Below the pieces are notes generated by a model, which ran no database searches, was not told the DNA's origin, and worked only from the letters and a program-made list of their open reading frames with translations. Positions 33,001 to 36,402 of a DNA stretch of 39,752 nucleotides are shown here, in pieces. How positions within the stretch are numbered: position 1 is the stretch's first letter; each line of letters begins with the position of its first letter. The translations under genes and the position numbers were made by a program. Source of the stretch: Escherichia phage Ebrios; sequence record MG966531; one strand, written 5' to 3'.

Positions 33001-34022
33001 CAGCCCGCTCTCCGTGGACTAAGCTGCTGAATGGTACGTCCAACTACATTCTCGATGCCGCACGTCAAGGGCTCCTTGGGGATGTCATTGAGGCGACCCT
33101 CAAGGGCAAGACTACCAAGTGGGAATCTGAGGGTTTCCTTCGAGGTGCCTCTGTGTCTCCTGAGCAGATGGCCGGAATCCGGTCACTCATTAAGGAACAC
33201 ATGGTTCGTGGAGAGGACGGTAAGTATTCCGTTAAGGACAAGCAGGCATTCAGTCTTGACCCACGGGCGATGGACTTGTGGCGACTGGCCGATAAGGTTG
33301 CCGATGAAGCGATGCTGAGGCCGCACAAGGTTTCCTTACAGGACTCCAAGGCGTTCGGTGCGCTTGGTCGGATGGCGTTGCAGTTCAAGACCTTCACCAT
33401 CAAGTCCCTGAACTCCAAGTTCCTGCGGATGTTCTACGATGGCTACAAAAATAGCCGAGCGATTGACGCTGCACTCACTGGGATTATCTCAATGGGTCTT
33501 GCTGGCGGATACTACGCTATGGCTGCCCACGCTAAAGCCTACGCTCTACCTGAGGAGCGGCGAAAGGAGTACCTTGAGAAAGCACTGAACCCGACCATGA
33601 TTGCTCACGCTTCATTGTCCAGAAGTGCCCAACTGGGTGCCCCGATGGCGATGGTTGACCTTGTAGGTGGTGGTGTCTTCGGCTTTGAGTCCTCAAAGAT
33701 GGCCCGTTCGTCAATCCTTCCTAAGGACACTTCGTACCAGCGCGACCCCAACAAGCCGTACACCGCTCAGGAGGTACTTGGAAACATGGGGCCTAACCTG
33801 CTGGAGCAGATGCCTTCGGCTGGCTTTGTGGCTAACGTTGGTGCTTCCGTGCTTAACGCTGCGGGAGTCGCTACGGCACCCAACAAGGCTACCGAGCAGG
33901 ACTTTATGACTGGCTTGATGAACTCCTCTAAGGAGCTCGTACCGAATGACCCGTTGACCCAACAGCTAATCCTCAAAATCTACGAAGCCAATGGCATCAA
34001 TTTGAAGGAGAAGCGCAAGTAA
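30057..34022 (+). CDS. 16: Gene 16 internal virion protein D with N-terminal lytic transglycosylase domain
   Basis: 1321 aa; N-terminus MDKYDKNVP..YDGLFQKAADANGVSYDLLRKVAWTESRF.PTAKSKTGPLGMMQFT.ATAKA.GL matches T7 gp16. Confidence 0.95.
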   Translation: MDKYDKNVPTEYDGLFQKAADANGVSYDLLRKVAWTESRFKPTAKSKTGPLGMMQFTQATAKAMGLKVTGGDDDERLVPELAINAAAKHLATLVGKFDGDELKAALAYNQGEGRVGGKQLEAYARGDFASISEEGRNYLRSLMDVAKSPMAGQLESFGGITPKGTGIPADQAFAGITNDRKRKVGTDLPESTGFDVKGIAQEGKADSFGHSFWKYHGETLDEYNERSTFFGFSGAAEAELSNSLLGVAARAARLDNGYDVFIDTITPTRWNSHVWTQEELAKIRTEVKNPAYINVVTGGSPENLDALIKLANDNYALDAKAADAGLGAKLSAGVLGAGVDPLSYVPMVGVTGKGFKLVNKAMVVGGQSAGLNVISEGLRTSVAGGDADYAGAALGGFVFSAGMTALGDTLASRMSRNKPDAQFTNEFAGPAIRMEARETARNANSTDLSRVNTEGMEFKGEHNGVPYADFKAEEGAVVLHDGSVISAGNPINPKTLKEFSEVDPEKAAWGIRLGGLTEIGLKTLGSTNADVRRLASDLVRSPTGMESGASGKFGATASDIHERLKGTDQRTYNELYAAMRVAMDDPEFSTGAAKMSREQARYEVYRRAALAIERPELQANLTKAELGVMNIIKRHFDTKRELMENPATFGRLDAKSIFPESRHKGTYVPHVYDRSAKQLMIRRYGAEGLQEAIARSWLTSYASRPEVKARVDEMLAELHGVKEVTPDMVTKHAMDKAYGISHSDHFSNSSIIDENIEGLVGIENNSFLEARNLFDSDLPVTLPDGQQFSVNDLRDFDMFRIMPAYDRRINGDIAIMGSTGKTTKELKDSIMELSKKAENNGQLKGEVEALKDTVKILTGRARRNQDTAFETALRSINDLGFFAKNAYMGAQNITEIAGMLATGNVRALGHGIPILRDTLYKSKPVSASELKEIHSSLFGREVDQLIRPKRADIVQRLRESTDTGPLTANIVGTLKYSTQELAARSPWTKLLNGTSNYILDAARQGLLGDVIEATLKGKTTKWESEGFLRGASVSPEQMAGIRSLIKEHMVRGEDGKYSVKDKQAFSLDPRAMDLWRLADKVADEAMLRPHKVSLQDSKAFGALGRMALQFKTFTIKSLNSKFLRMFYDGYKNSRAIDAALTGIISMGLAGGYYAMAAHAKAYALPEERRKEYLEKALNPTMIAHASLSRSAQLGAPMAMVDLVGGGVFGFESSKMARSSILPKDTSYQRDPNKPYTAQEVLGNMGPNLLEQMPSAGFVANVGASVLNAAGVATAPNKATEQDFMTGLMNSSKELVPNDPLTQQLILKIYEANGINLKEKRK

Positions 34023-34042
34023 TACGACTCACTATAGGGAGA
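34020..34042 (+). promoter_or_regulatory. Phage promoter phi17 (class III)
   Basis: TAATACGACTCACTATAGGGAGA, overlapping the gene 16 stop. Confidence 0.9.
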
Positions 34043-34092
34043 GGGAAGACCTCCTTCTCCCGCTTTCTGATTCACTTTAAGAGGAGGTTTGC

Positions 34093-36048
34093 ATGGCTAA
34101 CGTGATTAAAACTGTGCTGACTTATCCGCTGGATGGCTCGACTACGGACTTCAACATCCCGTTCGAGTATCTGGCCCGTAAGTTTGTAGTGGTGACTCTG
34201 CTTGGTGCAGACCGCCGAGTCCTGACGTTGCCCACCGATTACCGATTCGCTACCCGCACGGTCATTGCAACCAACAAGGCGTGGGGGCCAGCCGATGGTT
34301 ACACTCAAATCGAAATCCGCCGAGTGACTTCGGCCACTGAGCGACTGGTGGACTTTACGGATGGCTCGATTCTCCGAGCGTATGACCTGAACGTCGCCCA
34401 AATCCAGACCATGCACGTTGCTGAGGAGGCCCGTAACATGACCGCCGATACTATCGGTGTCAACAACGATGGTCACTTGGATGCCCGTGGTCGTAGGATT
34501 GTTAACTTGGCGTATGCCACAAGTGACTATGATGCCGTTCCTTTAAAGCAGATTAAAGAGCGTGAATTCTCTGCATGGAATGCCGTAACAAAAGCTAACG
34601 AACACGCTGACCGTTCCAATAAGGAAGCAAACAGTTCTCGTGACGAGGCCAACCGCGCTCAACGTGAAGCTGACCGCTCAACGCAACAGGCAGGCGTCTC
34701 TACTCAACAAGCAGTCGAGTCCAAGAAGCAAGCTGACCGTTCCGGCTCCGAGGCTAACCGAGCTAAAGGCTATGCTGATGGCATGACCGCAAGCGTCGCT
34801 GAGGCCAAGACGCAAGCTGACCGTTCCGGCTCTGAGGCCAATCGTGCCAGTGATGGGGCCAATCGTGCTGCCGGAGAAGTGACTAAAGCTGCTGCTGAGG
34901 TTGCCAAGGCTGCTGCACATGTTGAGACCGCTAAGGGACATGCTGATAGGGCTAACGTTGAGGCAAACCGCTCCAAAGGTGAGGCTGACCGTGCTAAGTC
35001 TGAGGCCAATAGGGCACAACAAGCAGTCCAATACGTGAAAGACCTTGGTGCTGTTCCTGTAGGTACTATCGCTATGTTCGGAACTGCCGCCATTCCTGCT
35101 GGCTGGTTGTCCCTTATGGAGGACGACCCTATCTTTGATGTTAGGGTTTACCCAGACTTGGCCAGATTGTACCCTACAGGACACCTACCGTCCTATAAGG
35201 ACAGGGTGCCGGAAGGTGTAGGCTCAGGTATCACTCTTGGTCAGAAACGCGCTGGTAATGTTGGTGTAACTTCGGCTATTATGCTACAGACCGATACAGT
35301 TGACTTAAACCATTCACATGATTTCTCAGGGAGCACAACAAGTGGTGGCGAACATGAGCACTTCATTAACTCACTAAACCAGCGGTCTGACTCAGGGGTT
35401 TACCCTACAATCGAATGGTCGAACTGGCGCTCGCCAAACCCGCCAAACTGGACTAAGACAGCAATTGGTGGTAAGCATTCCCACTCAGTCAGTGGTATTA
35501 CAGCCGGTATGAAAAATGGAGTTGGTCAGAAACACAACCACACTATCTCTGGTGTAGTTGGGTCTGGTCGGAACTTAGTTGATGCAACGGGTACTATTTT
35601 TGCGATTAAAGCATTTGGGACAGTTGCCAATGAAGGGTCTCTAGATGCACCTGCACTTAGTGGCTCAATCCAGCGTGTTAACAACAGGGTCAGTACACTT
35701 GAAACAGCAGTTGGGTATGGGAGGAAGGTGAACATTTCCGACCTTCTTGTTCCAGCAACTGGGTGGACTTTTAATAATGATGAATGCCCAGTCCTAGAGA
35801 CAGCTAGTGGGTACATCGTGAGAGCCATATTCCGAGGAATTGGAAGCTCTGGCTCTACAACACGCAACATGTGTACGTTGAAAGCTGGTCTCAAGTGTGT
35901 TGGTTATTCAGCCGCTGTTGTGTATAACCCTACCCTTCCAACAGGAGCTGGTTATGTCGAGTTACTACACCCAAATTACCTAGCCGTTGCTGGGAGTAAT
36001 GGCCCGTATGGGTGGGTTATGGCAACACTAACATTAGAGAAAGTATAA
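34093..36048 (+). CDS. 17: Gene 17 tail fibre, chimeric: T7-like N-terminal and shaft regions, divergent distal collar/HxH domain
   Basis: First ~150 aa match T7 gp17 (MANVIKTVLTY.LDGS...VNNDGHLDARGRRIVNLA); middle has ADRS/EANRA-type repeats; distal ~330 aa carry PVGTIAMFGTAAIPAGWL and HSH/HEH/HSHS/HNH motifs. 651 aa versus 553 in T7. Confidence 0.9.
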   Translation: MANVIKTVLTYPLDGSTTDFNIPFEYLARKFVVVTLLGADRRVLTLPTDYRFATRTVIATNKAWGPADGYTQIEIRRVTSATERLVDFTDGSILRAYDLNVAQIQTMHVAEEARNMTADTIGVNNDGHLDARGRRIVNLAYATSDYDAVPLKQIKEREFSAWNAVTKANEHADRSNKEANSSRDEANRAQREADRSTQQAGVSTQQAVESKKQADRSGSEANRAKGYADGMTASVAEAKTQADRSGSEANRASDGANRAAGEVTKAAAEVAKAAAHVETAKGHADRANVEANRSKGEADRAKSEANRAQQAVQYVKDLGAVPVGTIAMFGTAAIPAGWLSLMEDDPIFDVRVYPDLARLYPTGHLPSYKDRVPEGVGSGITLGQKRAGNVGVTSAIMLQTDTVDLNHSHDFSGSTTSGGEHEHFINSLNQRSDSGVYPTIEWSNWRSPNPPNWTKTAIGGKHSHSVSGITAGMKNGVGQKHNHTISGVVGSGRNLVDATGTIFAIKAFGTVANEGSLDAPALSGSIQRVNNRVSTLETAVGYGRKVNISDLLVPATGWTFNNDECPVLETASGYIVRAIFRGIGSSGSTTRNMCTLKAGLKCVGYSAAVVYNPTLPTGAGYVELLHPNYLAVAGSNGPYGWVMATLTLEKV

Positions 36049-36060
36049 GGAGACAATACA

Positions 36061-36177
36061 ATGGCCCTTGAAACTTCACAGGCAGGAGACCAGCTCTTAT
36101 GGGCACTCCCTGTTGGTGGAGCTATTGCCACTAACATTGTGGCTATACAGTTCATAGGCCTTACACTTAACGACTAA
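36061..36177 (+). CDS. Small hydrophobic ORF between tail fibre and holin genes (unknown)
   Basis: 38-aa ORF MALETSQAGDQLLWALPVGGAIATNIVAIQFIGLTLND with RBS TAAGGAGA 7 nt upstream; T7 has no gene here as far as I recall. Confidence 0.35.
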   Translation: MALETSQAGDQLLWALPVGGAIATNIVAIQFIGLTLND

Positions 36178-36198
36178 CTATATGGAGACATTTCGTGT

Positions 36199-36402
36199 AT
36201 GTTGACGCTAGATTTTAACAACGAGGTCATTAAGGCTGCGCCCATTGCTGGCGTGGCCGGTGCCGATGGTGTGGCTCGCCTGTTCTGGGGCTTGTCGCTT
36301 AACGAGTGGTTCTACGTGGCCGCTATCGCCTACACAGTGGTTCAGATTGGTGCCAAGGTAGTCGATAAAGTAATTGACTGGAAGAAAGCCAGTAAGGAGT
36401 AA
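36199..36402 (+). CDS. 17.5: Gene 17.5 holin
   Basis: 67 aa, ML.LDFNNE.IKAAPI.G...ARLF.GLSLNEWFYVAAIAYTVVQIGAKVVDK.IDWKKA.KE as in T7 gp17.5. Confidence 0.92.
   Translation: MLTLDFNNEVIKAAPIAGVAGADGVARLFWGLSLNEWFYVAAIAYTVVQIGAKVVDKVIDWKKASKE

What the first reader, a model, noticed from the sequence alone, without database searches (positions are those of the whole stretch)
36049..36198. Unannotated 38-aa hydrophobic ORF between tail fibre and holin genes
The gap between gene 17 and 17.5 holds a small ORF with a well-placed RBS (TAAGGAGA, 7 nt from the ATG) encoding MALETSQAGDQLLWALPVGGAIATNIVAIQFIGLTLND, with one likely membrane-spanning segment. T7 has no gene here as far as I recall. It sits just downstream of the swapped fibre tip, so it may have been acquired with it, for example as a fibre-associated or lysis-associated micropeptide.
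Basis: seen in the sequence. Interest (0 to 1): 0.45.

Follow-up and report, generated by a model that had tools for sequence, protein, structure and literature searches.

The report
Leftover front half of a holin gene
The small ORF between the tail-fibre and holin genes is the truncated first half of a second, foreign holin gene that came in with a swapped fibre tip and is now decaying, so it is an ordinary recombination scar rather than a new gene.

Summary
The ORF is real: 36061..36177, 38 aa, with a good Shine-Dalgarno sequence (SD). It is not a new gene. It is codons 1-37 of the 67-aa T7-family holin (PF10746) carried by Aeromonas phages T7-Ah, PZL-Ah152 and PT2 (82% identity, E 3e-21). 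It is cut off just before the second transmembrane helix. At that point the DNA switches into a T7-promoter-like element that sits in front of the phage's own intact gene 17.5, and that element supplies the stop codon.

Nine truncated copies in IME15-like phages share this exact junction, so the truncation happened once. The copies are decaying. There are two independent 1-nt frameshifts and one ATG>GTG change. One copy has three charge-introducing substitutions. The close relative KFSA9 lacks the remnant entirely. Variant alleles run 16 nonsynonymous to 10 synonymous in the truncated copies, against 1 to 8 in intact holins.

In the window, a T7-Ah-like block runs unbroken from the fibre C-terminal half through the remnant (35020-36173). 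A functional micropeptide is not supported. Interest is low. The one mildly interesting point is that the remnant seems to have served as the right-hand homology arm for repeated fibre-tip swaps.

The parts
35020..36048 (+). C-terminal half of tail-fibre gene 17 (the whole gene is 34093..36048). This is the T7-Ah-like imported fibre tip and forms the left part of the imported block.
   Evidence: blastn shows window 35020-36173 matching T7-Ah continuously at 79% identity, while 34000-35007 is KFSA9/IME15-like at 94-98%. tblastn of the tip gives 76% aa identity to T7-Ah and L017 and 70-71% to L014/L016.
36047..36054 (+). Shine-Dalgarno TAAGGAGA, inherited from the donor holin gene's translation start region.
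   Evidence: It aligns with TAAGGAGG in front of the intact holins of T7-Ah, PZL-Ah152 and PT2.
36061..36177 (+). 38-codon ORF. It is the 5' remnant (codons 1-37) of a T7-Ah-type class II holin gene and lacks TMD2 and the charged C-terminal tail.
   Evidence: BLASTP gives 31/38 identical residues to residues 1-38 of the T7-Ah holin, E 3e-21. The T7-Ah holin hits PF10746 at 44.8 bits against a cutoff of 25.4. Constraint is relaxed and relatives carry frameshifts.
36166..36188 (+). Recombination junction and degenerate T7-type promoter-like element, CTTAACGACTAACTATATGGAGA. The crossover lies within CTTAACGA (36166-36173). The TAA stop at 36175-36177 comes from a C>A change at promoter position -7.
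   Evidence: Homology to intact holins ends at the same nucleotide in every copy, and homology to KFSA9 begins at 36166. The core matches the consensus ACTCACTATAGGGAGA with 2 mismatches. The window's other promoters are TAATACGACTCACTATAGGGAGA.
36199..36402 (+). Intact resident holin gene 17.5 (67 aa).
   Evidence: PF10746 at 112.5 bits and phrog_920 holin. It is about 80% nt identical to T7 gene 17.5.

Best explanation
The 38-codon ORF is a non-functional 5' remnant of a xenologous holin gene, that is, a recombination scar. In T7-Ah-like Aeromonas phages, a 67-aa T7-family holin gene starts 12 nt after the fibre gene. An ancestor of the IME15-like phages, the group this window belongs to, imported a fibre-tip segment from such a phage. 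The right-hand crossover was illegitimate. It joined holin codon 37/38 (GGGCCTTACACTTAACGA|ATGG) to a similar short sequence (GGGCCATCTTTACGA|CTCACTATAGG) inside a T7-promoter-like element that lies upstream of the resident gene 17.5. The fragment kept the donor's SD and ATG, so it still reads as an ORF and may well be translated. It encodes only the N-terminal tail and the weakly hydrophobic first helix. Its stop codon is supplied accidentally by the promoter-like sequence. Since then it has drifted without protein-level selection. Shown here: the homology, the shared junction, the mosaic block, the decay and the dispensability. Inferred: the microhomology mechanism, the direction of transfer, and the lack of any activity of the peptide.
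For: (1) Homology. The ORF is 82% identical over all 38 residues to residues 1-38 of the T7-Ah, PZL-Ah152, PT2 and PZL-Ah8 holins. Those proteins are PF10746/phrog_920 members. The ORF is also 34% identical to the N-terminal half of the window's own gp17.5.
(2) Truncation point. The DNA alignments show homology to intact holins ending at holin nt 113 in every truncated copy, followed by CGACT(C/A)ACTATAGGGAGA and gene 17.5.
(3) Single event. The same junction is present in window, IME15, PZL-Ah1, avDM11, PVN09, ENA L018 and Logan L014-L017.
(4) Variable stop. It is a TAA created by the -7 C>A change in window and avDM11, and the TAG of TATAGGG two codons later in IME15, PZL-Ah1, L017 and L018.
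(5) Decay. PVN09 has ATG>GTG plus a 1-nt deletion. L014-L016 have a different 1-nt deletion that gives a frameshifted 47-aa product. L017 has A15E, G20R and F31R.
(6) Dispensability. KFSA9 is 96-98% identical in the flanks but has no remnant, only a hairpin plus the promoter-like element.
(7) Selection. Over the 36 shared codons, variant alleles are 16 nonsynonymous to 10 synonymous in truncated copies and 1 to 8 in intact holins (Fisher p = 0.018). Intact-versus-intact pairs have pN = 0 with up to 7 synonymous differences. Window, IME15 and PZL-Ah1 against T7-Ah give pN/pS of 1.5-3.1.
(8) An open frame is expected by chance at this divergence: P(no stop after 8 substitutions) = 0.74.
(9) Mosaic block. 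Window 35020-36173 is T7-Ah-like.
Against: SD and ATG are retained in 8 of the 9 truncated copies, and the holin frame is still open in 6 of them. The avDM11 and L018 copies carry only mild changes: L16I and I26V in avDM11, L16I and Q30R in L018. avDM11 against intact holins gives pN/pS of 0.10-0.15, although much of that synonymous divergence may predate the truncation. In the window/IME15/PZL-Ah1 clade, R14W and R29I raise the hydropathy of the segment from 1.09 to 1.58-1.72, which could be read as adaptation towards a true membrane peptide. Divergence is low (4-8 nt per copy), so the selection tests have little power. The allele counts are not independent events. No expression or phenotype data exist.
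Confidence: 0.85

Rival explanations
1. The fragment is a functional micropeptide. It would be a TMD1-only holin fragment that inserts in the membrane and modulates the resident gp17.5 holin, acting as a trans antiholin or a lysis timer.
For: It retains a strong SD and ATG and is homologous to the N-terminal helix of gp17.5, so heterotypic interaction is conceivable. R14W and R29I in the window clade raise hydrophobicity to a KD of 1.72. From general knowledge, TMD1 of the phage 21 pinholin acts as an inhibitor of TMD2. gp17.5 is only a timer in T7, where its deletion delays lysis by 2.8 min (PMC2680503), so fine-tuning of lysis is plausible.
Against: There are two independent frameshifts, one lost ATG, charged substitutions inside the helix in L017, and complete absence in KFSA9. 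The ratio of nonsynonymous to synonymous variants is far above that of intact holins. The stop codon position is not conserved.
Confidence: 0.07
2. The ORF acts as an upstream ORF. Its translation, which ends 21 nt before the 17.5 ATG, would open mRNA structure or deliver ribosomes to the weak 17.5 start (GGAGA, 10-nt spacer), so the act of translation matters and the peptide does not.
For: The stop lies at 36175-36177 and the holin ATG at 36199. The only SD-like motif for 17.5 is the GGAGA of the promoter-like element. The predicted local hairpin includes the 17.5 start region. Tolerance of frameshifted versions fits this idea, because those versions still terminate close to, or overlapping, the 17.5 start (1436-1579 against 1573-1776).
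Against: KFSA9 expresses the same 17.5 context with no upstream ORF. The fold is not better than shuffled sequence (z = -1.55). There is no direct evidence.
Confidence: 0.05
3. It is a fibre-associated peptide, such as a chaperone or assembly factor, that was acquired with the fibre tip.
For: It sits immediately downstream of the fibre gene and inside the same imported block.
Against: It is homologous to a holin, not to any fibre chaperone. The same remnant follows three unrelated fibre tips. It is frameshifted in phages with the homologous tip.
Confidence: 0.01

Closest known systems
T7-family class II holin, gp17.5 (Pfam PF10746 Phage_holin_2_2; phrog_920), specifically the T7-Ah / PZL-Ah152 / PT2 / PZL-Ah8 variant
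   Same: Residues 1-37 are 82% identical to the N-terminal half of these holins. The SD is the same. The position immediately after the fibre gene is the same.
   Different: It stops at residue 38. It lacks the main hydrophobic helix (WFYVASIGYVLVQVWAVLY) and the lysine-rich C-terminal tail. It gives no Pfam or PHROG hit on its own. It evolves without the constraint seen in the intact genes.
Gene remnants and boundary scars of modular (mosaic) phage recombination, as described for lambdoid and T7-group phages (general knowledge)
   Same: A module, here the fibre tip, was imported through one imprecise crossover that left a partial gene beside the resident orthologue. The junction shows short sequence similarity.
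   Different: Here the crossover fell between a coding sequence and a phage-RNAP promoter-like element. The scar has kept an intact translation start and therefore mimics a small gene.
IME15 'hypothetical protein' AFV51479.1 (40 aa) and avDM11-UST UYD60842.1 (38 aa)
   Same: They are orthologous copies of the same remnant at the same locus, 79-89% identical.
   Different: The IME15 copy ends two codons later (…TDSL). Neither record identifies it as a holin fragment.
Antiholins and TMD1-type holin inhibitors (lambda S107, phage 21 S21-71 / TMD1)
   Same: The only shared feature is a holin-derived N-terminal segment encoded next to a holin gene.
   Different: Known antiholins are full-length or dual-start products and are conserved. 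This fragment is not conserved and has no demonstrated activity.

Membership tests
T7-family holin (PF10746 / gp17.5) | Significant sequence homology to family members | tested here: met
   BLASTP against the T7-Ah holin gives 82% identity, E 3e-21. Against the window's gp17.5 it gives 34% identity, E 1e-4. The T7-Ah holin itself scores 44.8 bits on PF10746 against a cutoff of 25.4.
T7-family holin (PF10746 / gp17.5) | Profile match above the Pfam gathering score | tested here: not met
   The 38-aa ORF gives no Pfam or PHROG hit at E<=1.
T7-family holin (PF10746 / gp17.5) | Full length of about 67 aa with the second, strongly hydrophobic helix (WFYVA...) and a charged C-terminal tail | tested here: not met
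   The alignment shows the ORF ending at the residue before W38/F39, so residues 39-67 are absent. In intact proteins the hydropathy maximum lies at residues 37-57.
T7-family holin (PF10746 / gp17.5) | Hole-forming / lysis-timing activity | not testable with these tools
   It needs lambda holin-defective (S-minus) complementation or phage knockouts. For T7 gp17.5 itself, see PMC2680503.
Functional small protein-coding gene | Reading frame conserved in relatives | tested here: not met
   There are frameshifts in PVN09 and in L014-L016, an ATG>GTG change in PVN09, and no ORF in KFSA9.
Functional small protein-coding gene | Purifying selection (nonsynonymous changes far fewer than synonymous) | tested here: not met
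   Truncated copies show 16 nonsynonymous to 10 synonymous variant alleles, against 1 to 8 in intact holins (p = 0.018). pN/pS is 1.0-3.1 within the window clade and against T7-Ah. The numbers are small.
Functional small protein-coding gene | Translation initiation signals | tested here: met
   TAAGGAGA, a 6-nt spacer, then ATG. These are inherited from the donor holin gene.
Antiholin | Physical interaction with, and delay of, the cognate holin | not testable with these tools
The lack of conservation argues against it.
T7 RNA polymerase promoter (element at 36166-36188) | Match to the phage's own 23-nt consensus TAATACGACTCACTATAGGGAGA, especially -12..-7 and +1 | tested here: inconclusive
   The window copy matches at 17/23 positions, with changes at -7 (C>A) and +1 (G>T). 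Relatives have a perfect -12..+6 but a non-consensus -17..-13. Activity was not measured.

The most novel reading that the evidence does not exclude
The holin remnant persists because it is useful as DNA, not as a peptide. It gives IME15-like phages about 130 bp of 88-95% identity to the start of the holin gene of T7-Ah-like phages, which makes a fixed right-hand homology arm. Together with the conserved fibre N-terminal region on the left, this would allow repeated cassette exchange of fibre tips, and so host-range switching, between the two lineages. Three unrelated fibre tips sit left of the same unique junction. Each is collinear, right up to the junction, with a different intact-holin phage: window with T7-Ah, IME15/PZL-Ah1 with PZL-Ah152, and PVN09 with Logan L019. 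A less likely alternative is that the peptide is a trans-acting TMD1 antiholin.
Probability: 0.4. Interest if true: 0.35.

Novelty: new member of a known kind. Interest (0 to 1): 0.15.

Why it matters
The main value is for annotation. This ORF, and its annotated 'hypothetical protein' counterparts in IME15 and avDM11-UST, should be labelled a holin gene fragment and not counted as a novel small protein. It is also a clean, nucleotide-resolved example of how T7-group phages swap fibre tips. One crossover was illegitimate and landed in a promoter-like sequence. The resulting scar then appears to have been reused as a homology arm for further tip exchanges between two Aeromonas-infecting lineages. 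That is relevant to host-range evolution and to engineering fibre swaps, but it fits established ideas of modular phage evolution.

Tried and rejected
- Direct Pfam and PHROG scans of the 38-aa peptide gave no hits because it is too short. The identification came from tblastn against phage genomes.
I used the 40-aa IME15 orthologue instead.
- Two IMG/VR pattern scans returned only IME15 itself, and the metagenome contig scan found nothing. Extra copies came from the protein collection and its contigs.
- An RNA element was rejected: there was no Rfam match at E<=1, the fold z-score was -1.55, and there was no terminator on the + strand.
- No tandem repeats were found in 34000-36400.
- My first parsimony count was corrupted by an off-by-one start for PVN09. 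I discarded it and redid it.
- A fibre chaperone was rejected on the holin homology.
- The antisense 59-aa ORF at 35976..36155 was given no weight. Every gene found in this part of the window and every annotated gene in the relatives' loci lies on the + strand, T7-group phages are known to transcribe one strand only, and I found nothing in its favour (I did not search it separately).
- Literature searches found nothing on this ORF.

Full report
**1. Observation**

Gene 17 (tail fibre, 34093..36048) and gene 17.5 (holin, 36199..36402) are separated by 150 nt. That gap contains an ATG ORF at 36061..36177 encoding MALETSQAGDQLLWALPVGGAIATNIVAIQFIGLTLND. TAAGGAGA lies at 36047-36054, 6 nt upstream of the ATG. 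The peptide's most hydrophobic 19-residue window scores 1.72 on the Kyte-Doolittle scale (residues 18-36). T7 has only a 58-nt spacer here, containing a hairpin and the 17.5 SD. ORF length alone is not informative, since one search lists 64 ORFs of at least 20 aa in 4 kb.

**2. What the phage is**

Window 15000-39752 is about 97% identical to Stenotrophomonas phage IME15 and Aeromonas phage PZL-Ah1. It is about 96% identical to Aeromonas phages KFSA9 and avDM11-UST, all Teseptimavirus. It is about 78% identical to T7. The window carries eleven sites within 3 mismatches of the T7 consensus promoter TAATACGACTCACTATAGGGAGA, so its RNA polymerase has T7-like specificity.

**3. What the ORF is**

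- tblastn of the peptide finds it in 13 phage records.
- In IME15, PZL-Ah1 and avDM11-UST it is a 38-40-aa ORF at the same locus. It is annotated 'hypothetical protein' in IME15 and avDM11-UST and not annotated in PZL-Ah1.
- In Aeromonas phages T7-Ah, PZL-Ah152, PT2 and PZL-Ah8 the match is the first 38 residues of a 67-aa 'class II holin' that starts 12 nt after the fibre gene.
- BLASTP of the window ORF against the T7-Ah holin gives 31/38 identities with no gaps, E 3e-21.
- The T7-Ah protein is a true T7-family holin: PF10746 at 44.8 bits against a cutoff of 25.4, and phrog_920.
- The mini-ORF also aligns to the N-terminal half of the window's own gp17.5: ALPVGGAIATNIVAIQFIGLTLND against AAPIAGVAGADGVARLFWGLSLNE, 34% identity.
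- It ends exactly one residue before the conserved WFYVA... helix. It therefore lacks the main transmembrane helix and the charged C-terminal tail.

**4. The junction**

DNA alignments show that homology to the intact holins ends at holin nt 113, at ...GGGCCTTACACTTAACGA|ATGGTTT. In the truncated copies the sequence continues ...CTTnnCGA|CT(C/A)ACTATAGGGAGACATTTCGTGTATG, which is positions -12 to +6 of the T7 promoter consensus followed by the 17.5 start.

KFSA9 has no remnant. Its spacer is a hairpin (GGCCCACGGAAGGGCC, resembling T7's AGTCCACGGATGGACT) followed by ATCTTTACGACTCACTATAGGAGA and gene 17.5. I infer that the crossover happened within CTT(A/T)ACGA, a 7-of-8 match between donor holin codons 35-38 and the recipient's promoter-like element, with GGGCC also shared just upstream. 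This points to microhomology-guided illegitimate recombination.

The ORF's stop codon is accidental:
- In the window and avDM11 it is a TAA created by a C>A change at promoter position -7.
- In IME15, PZL-Ah1, L017 and L018 it is the TAG of TATAGGG, two codons later.

**5. A single event, then decay**

A search of the large protein collection with the 40-aa IME15 version found three more truncated forms and one more intact holin. Their contigs show the same gene order.

All nine truncated copies share the identical junction. They are the window, IME15, PZL-Ah1, avDM11, PVN09, ENA L018, and Logan L014, L016 and L017. L015 encodes the same frameshifted product as L014 and L016.

Signs of decay:
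- PVN09 has ATG>GTG and a 1-nt deletion near codon 16.
- L014-L016 have an independent 1-nt deletion at codon 27, which gives a 47-aa frameshifted product.
- L017 has A15E, G20R and F31R inside the hydrophobic stretch.
- PZL-Ah1 has a 2-nt deletion in the SD region.

Selection tests over the 36 shared codons:
- Intact holins differ by up to 7 synonymous and 0 nonsynonymous changes in pairwise comparisons.
- One intact holin, L019, has D10E.
- Window, IME15 and PZL-Ah1 against T7-Ah give pN/pS of 1.5-3.1.
- Variant alleles are 16 nonsynonymous to 10 synonymous in truncated copies, against 1 to 8 in intact copies (Fisher p = 0.018).
- Counts are small and alleles are not independent events, so this is supporting evidence, not decisive on its own. 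The indels and the absence in KFSA9 carry more weight.
- An ORF that is still open is expected by chance. Only 12 of 324 possible single substitutions create a stop, so P(no stop after the window's 8 substitutions) is 0.74.

**6. Link to the fibre tip**

- Window 34000-35007 is KFSA9/IME15-like (94-98%).
- Window 35020-36173 aligns continuously to T7-Ah (79%) through the fibre C-terminal half, the spacer and the holin 5' part.
- From 36166 onward the window is IME15/KFSA9-like again (95%).

Relatives with the homologous tip are T7-Ah (intact holin), L017 (charged substitutions) and L014/L016 (frameshift).

Three unrelated tips lie to the left of the same unique junction. Each tip is collinear, up to the junction, with a different intact-holin phage: window with T7-Ah, IME15/PZL-Ah1 with PZL-Ah152, and PVN09 with L019. 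The junction arose once. Later tip replacements must therefore have crossed over homologously within or just before the remnant, which is 88-95% identical to intact holin 5' ends. I infer that the scar has acted as a homology arm for fibre-tip exchange. This is a consequence of the scar, not a demonstrated selected function.

**7. Other readings**

- No Rfam family matches.
- The RNA fold is not distinguishable from shuffled sequence (z = -1.55).
- There is no + strand terminator.
- A TMD1-only antiholin-like peptide, or a uORF coupling effect on 17.5, cannot be excluded without experiments. Both are disfavoured by the decay pattern and by KFSA9.
- T7 gp17.5 is itself only a lysis timer, and its deletion delays lysis by 2.8 min (PMC2680503). 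Any modulatory effect would therefore be subtle.

**8. Verdict**

The feature is real but ordinary. It is a truncated holin pseudogene fragment left by modular recombination, and it still looks like a gene because it kept the donor's ribosome-binding site and start codon. My confidence in this reading is 0.85. Interest is low (0.15). The only modestly interesting aspects are the nucleotide-resolved junction in a promoter-like element and the apparent reuse of the scar as a recombination arm.

Noticed in passing
window 36166-36188 (+): There is a T7-type promoter-like element directly upstream of gene 17.5, where T7 has none. Positions -12..+6 are a perfect consensus in IME15, PZL-Ah1, PVN09, L014, L016, L017 and L018, but -17..-13 are non-consensus (CTTnn). 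The window copy carries -7 C>A and +1 G>T, avDM11 carries -7 C>A, and KFSA9 lacks one G of GGG. This may be a weak lineage-specific phi17.5 promoter that is degenerating in some members.
   Followed up: partly
window 36184-36198 (+): The only SD-like motif in front of the resident holin ATG (36199) is the GGAGA of the promoter-like element, with a long 10-nt spacer. T7 has AGGAGG with a 5-nt spacer and a GTG start instead. Holin translation may therefore be set up differently in this lineage.
   Followed up: no
window 34093-36048 (+), gene 17: The fibre is a three-part mosaic. It has a T7-type N-terminal domain (PF03906, residues 1-155), a KFSA9-like alanine/arginine-rich coiled-coil region (to about 35007), and a T7-Ah-like tip with several HxH motifs (HSHDFSG, EHEHF, KHSHSVSG, KHNHTISG) and a sub-threshold Collar-domain hit. 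The HxH motifs recall metal-binding fibre needles such as T4 gp37/gp12, but that is from memory and was not tested.
   Followed up: partly
L002 2704-3642 (T7-Ah); same position in L007, L011, L012: In T7-Ah-like phages the intact holin is followed by a 312-aa ORF with an Sf6-type tail-needle-knob domain (PF16532, E 3e-20), lying between the holin and gene 18. This gene is absent from the window and from T7.
   Followed up: partly
L003 / L013 (Escherichia phages vB_Eco_Mak, Titus), 936-2504: These E. coli phages carry a more distant version of the same holin type (about 50% identity to the mini-ORF). They also have three extra ORFs between the fibre gene and the holin, so the fibre-to-holin interval is a hot spot for insertions in this group.
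   Followed up: no
window 35976-36155 (-): A 59-aa antisense ORF overlaps the fibre gene's end and the mini-ORF. I found nothing that supports it as a gene, and I did not test it separately.
   Followed up: no
L014 4484-4579, L015 3287-3382: Metagenomic relatives carry an HNH endonuclease gene (PF13392) immediately after the large terminase gene. I did not check whether the window has one.
   Followed up: no
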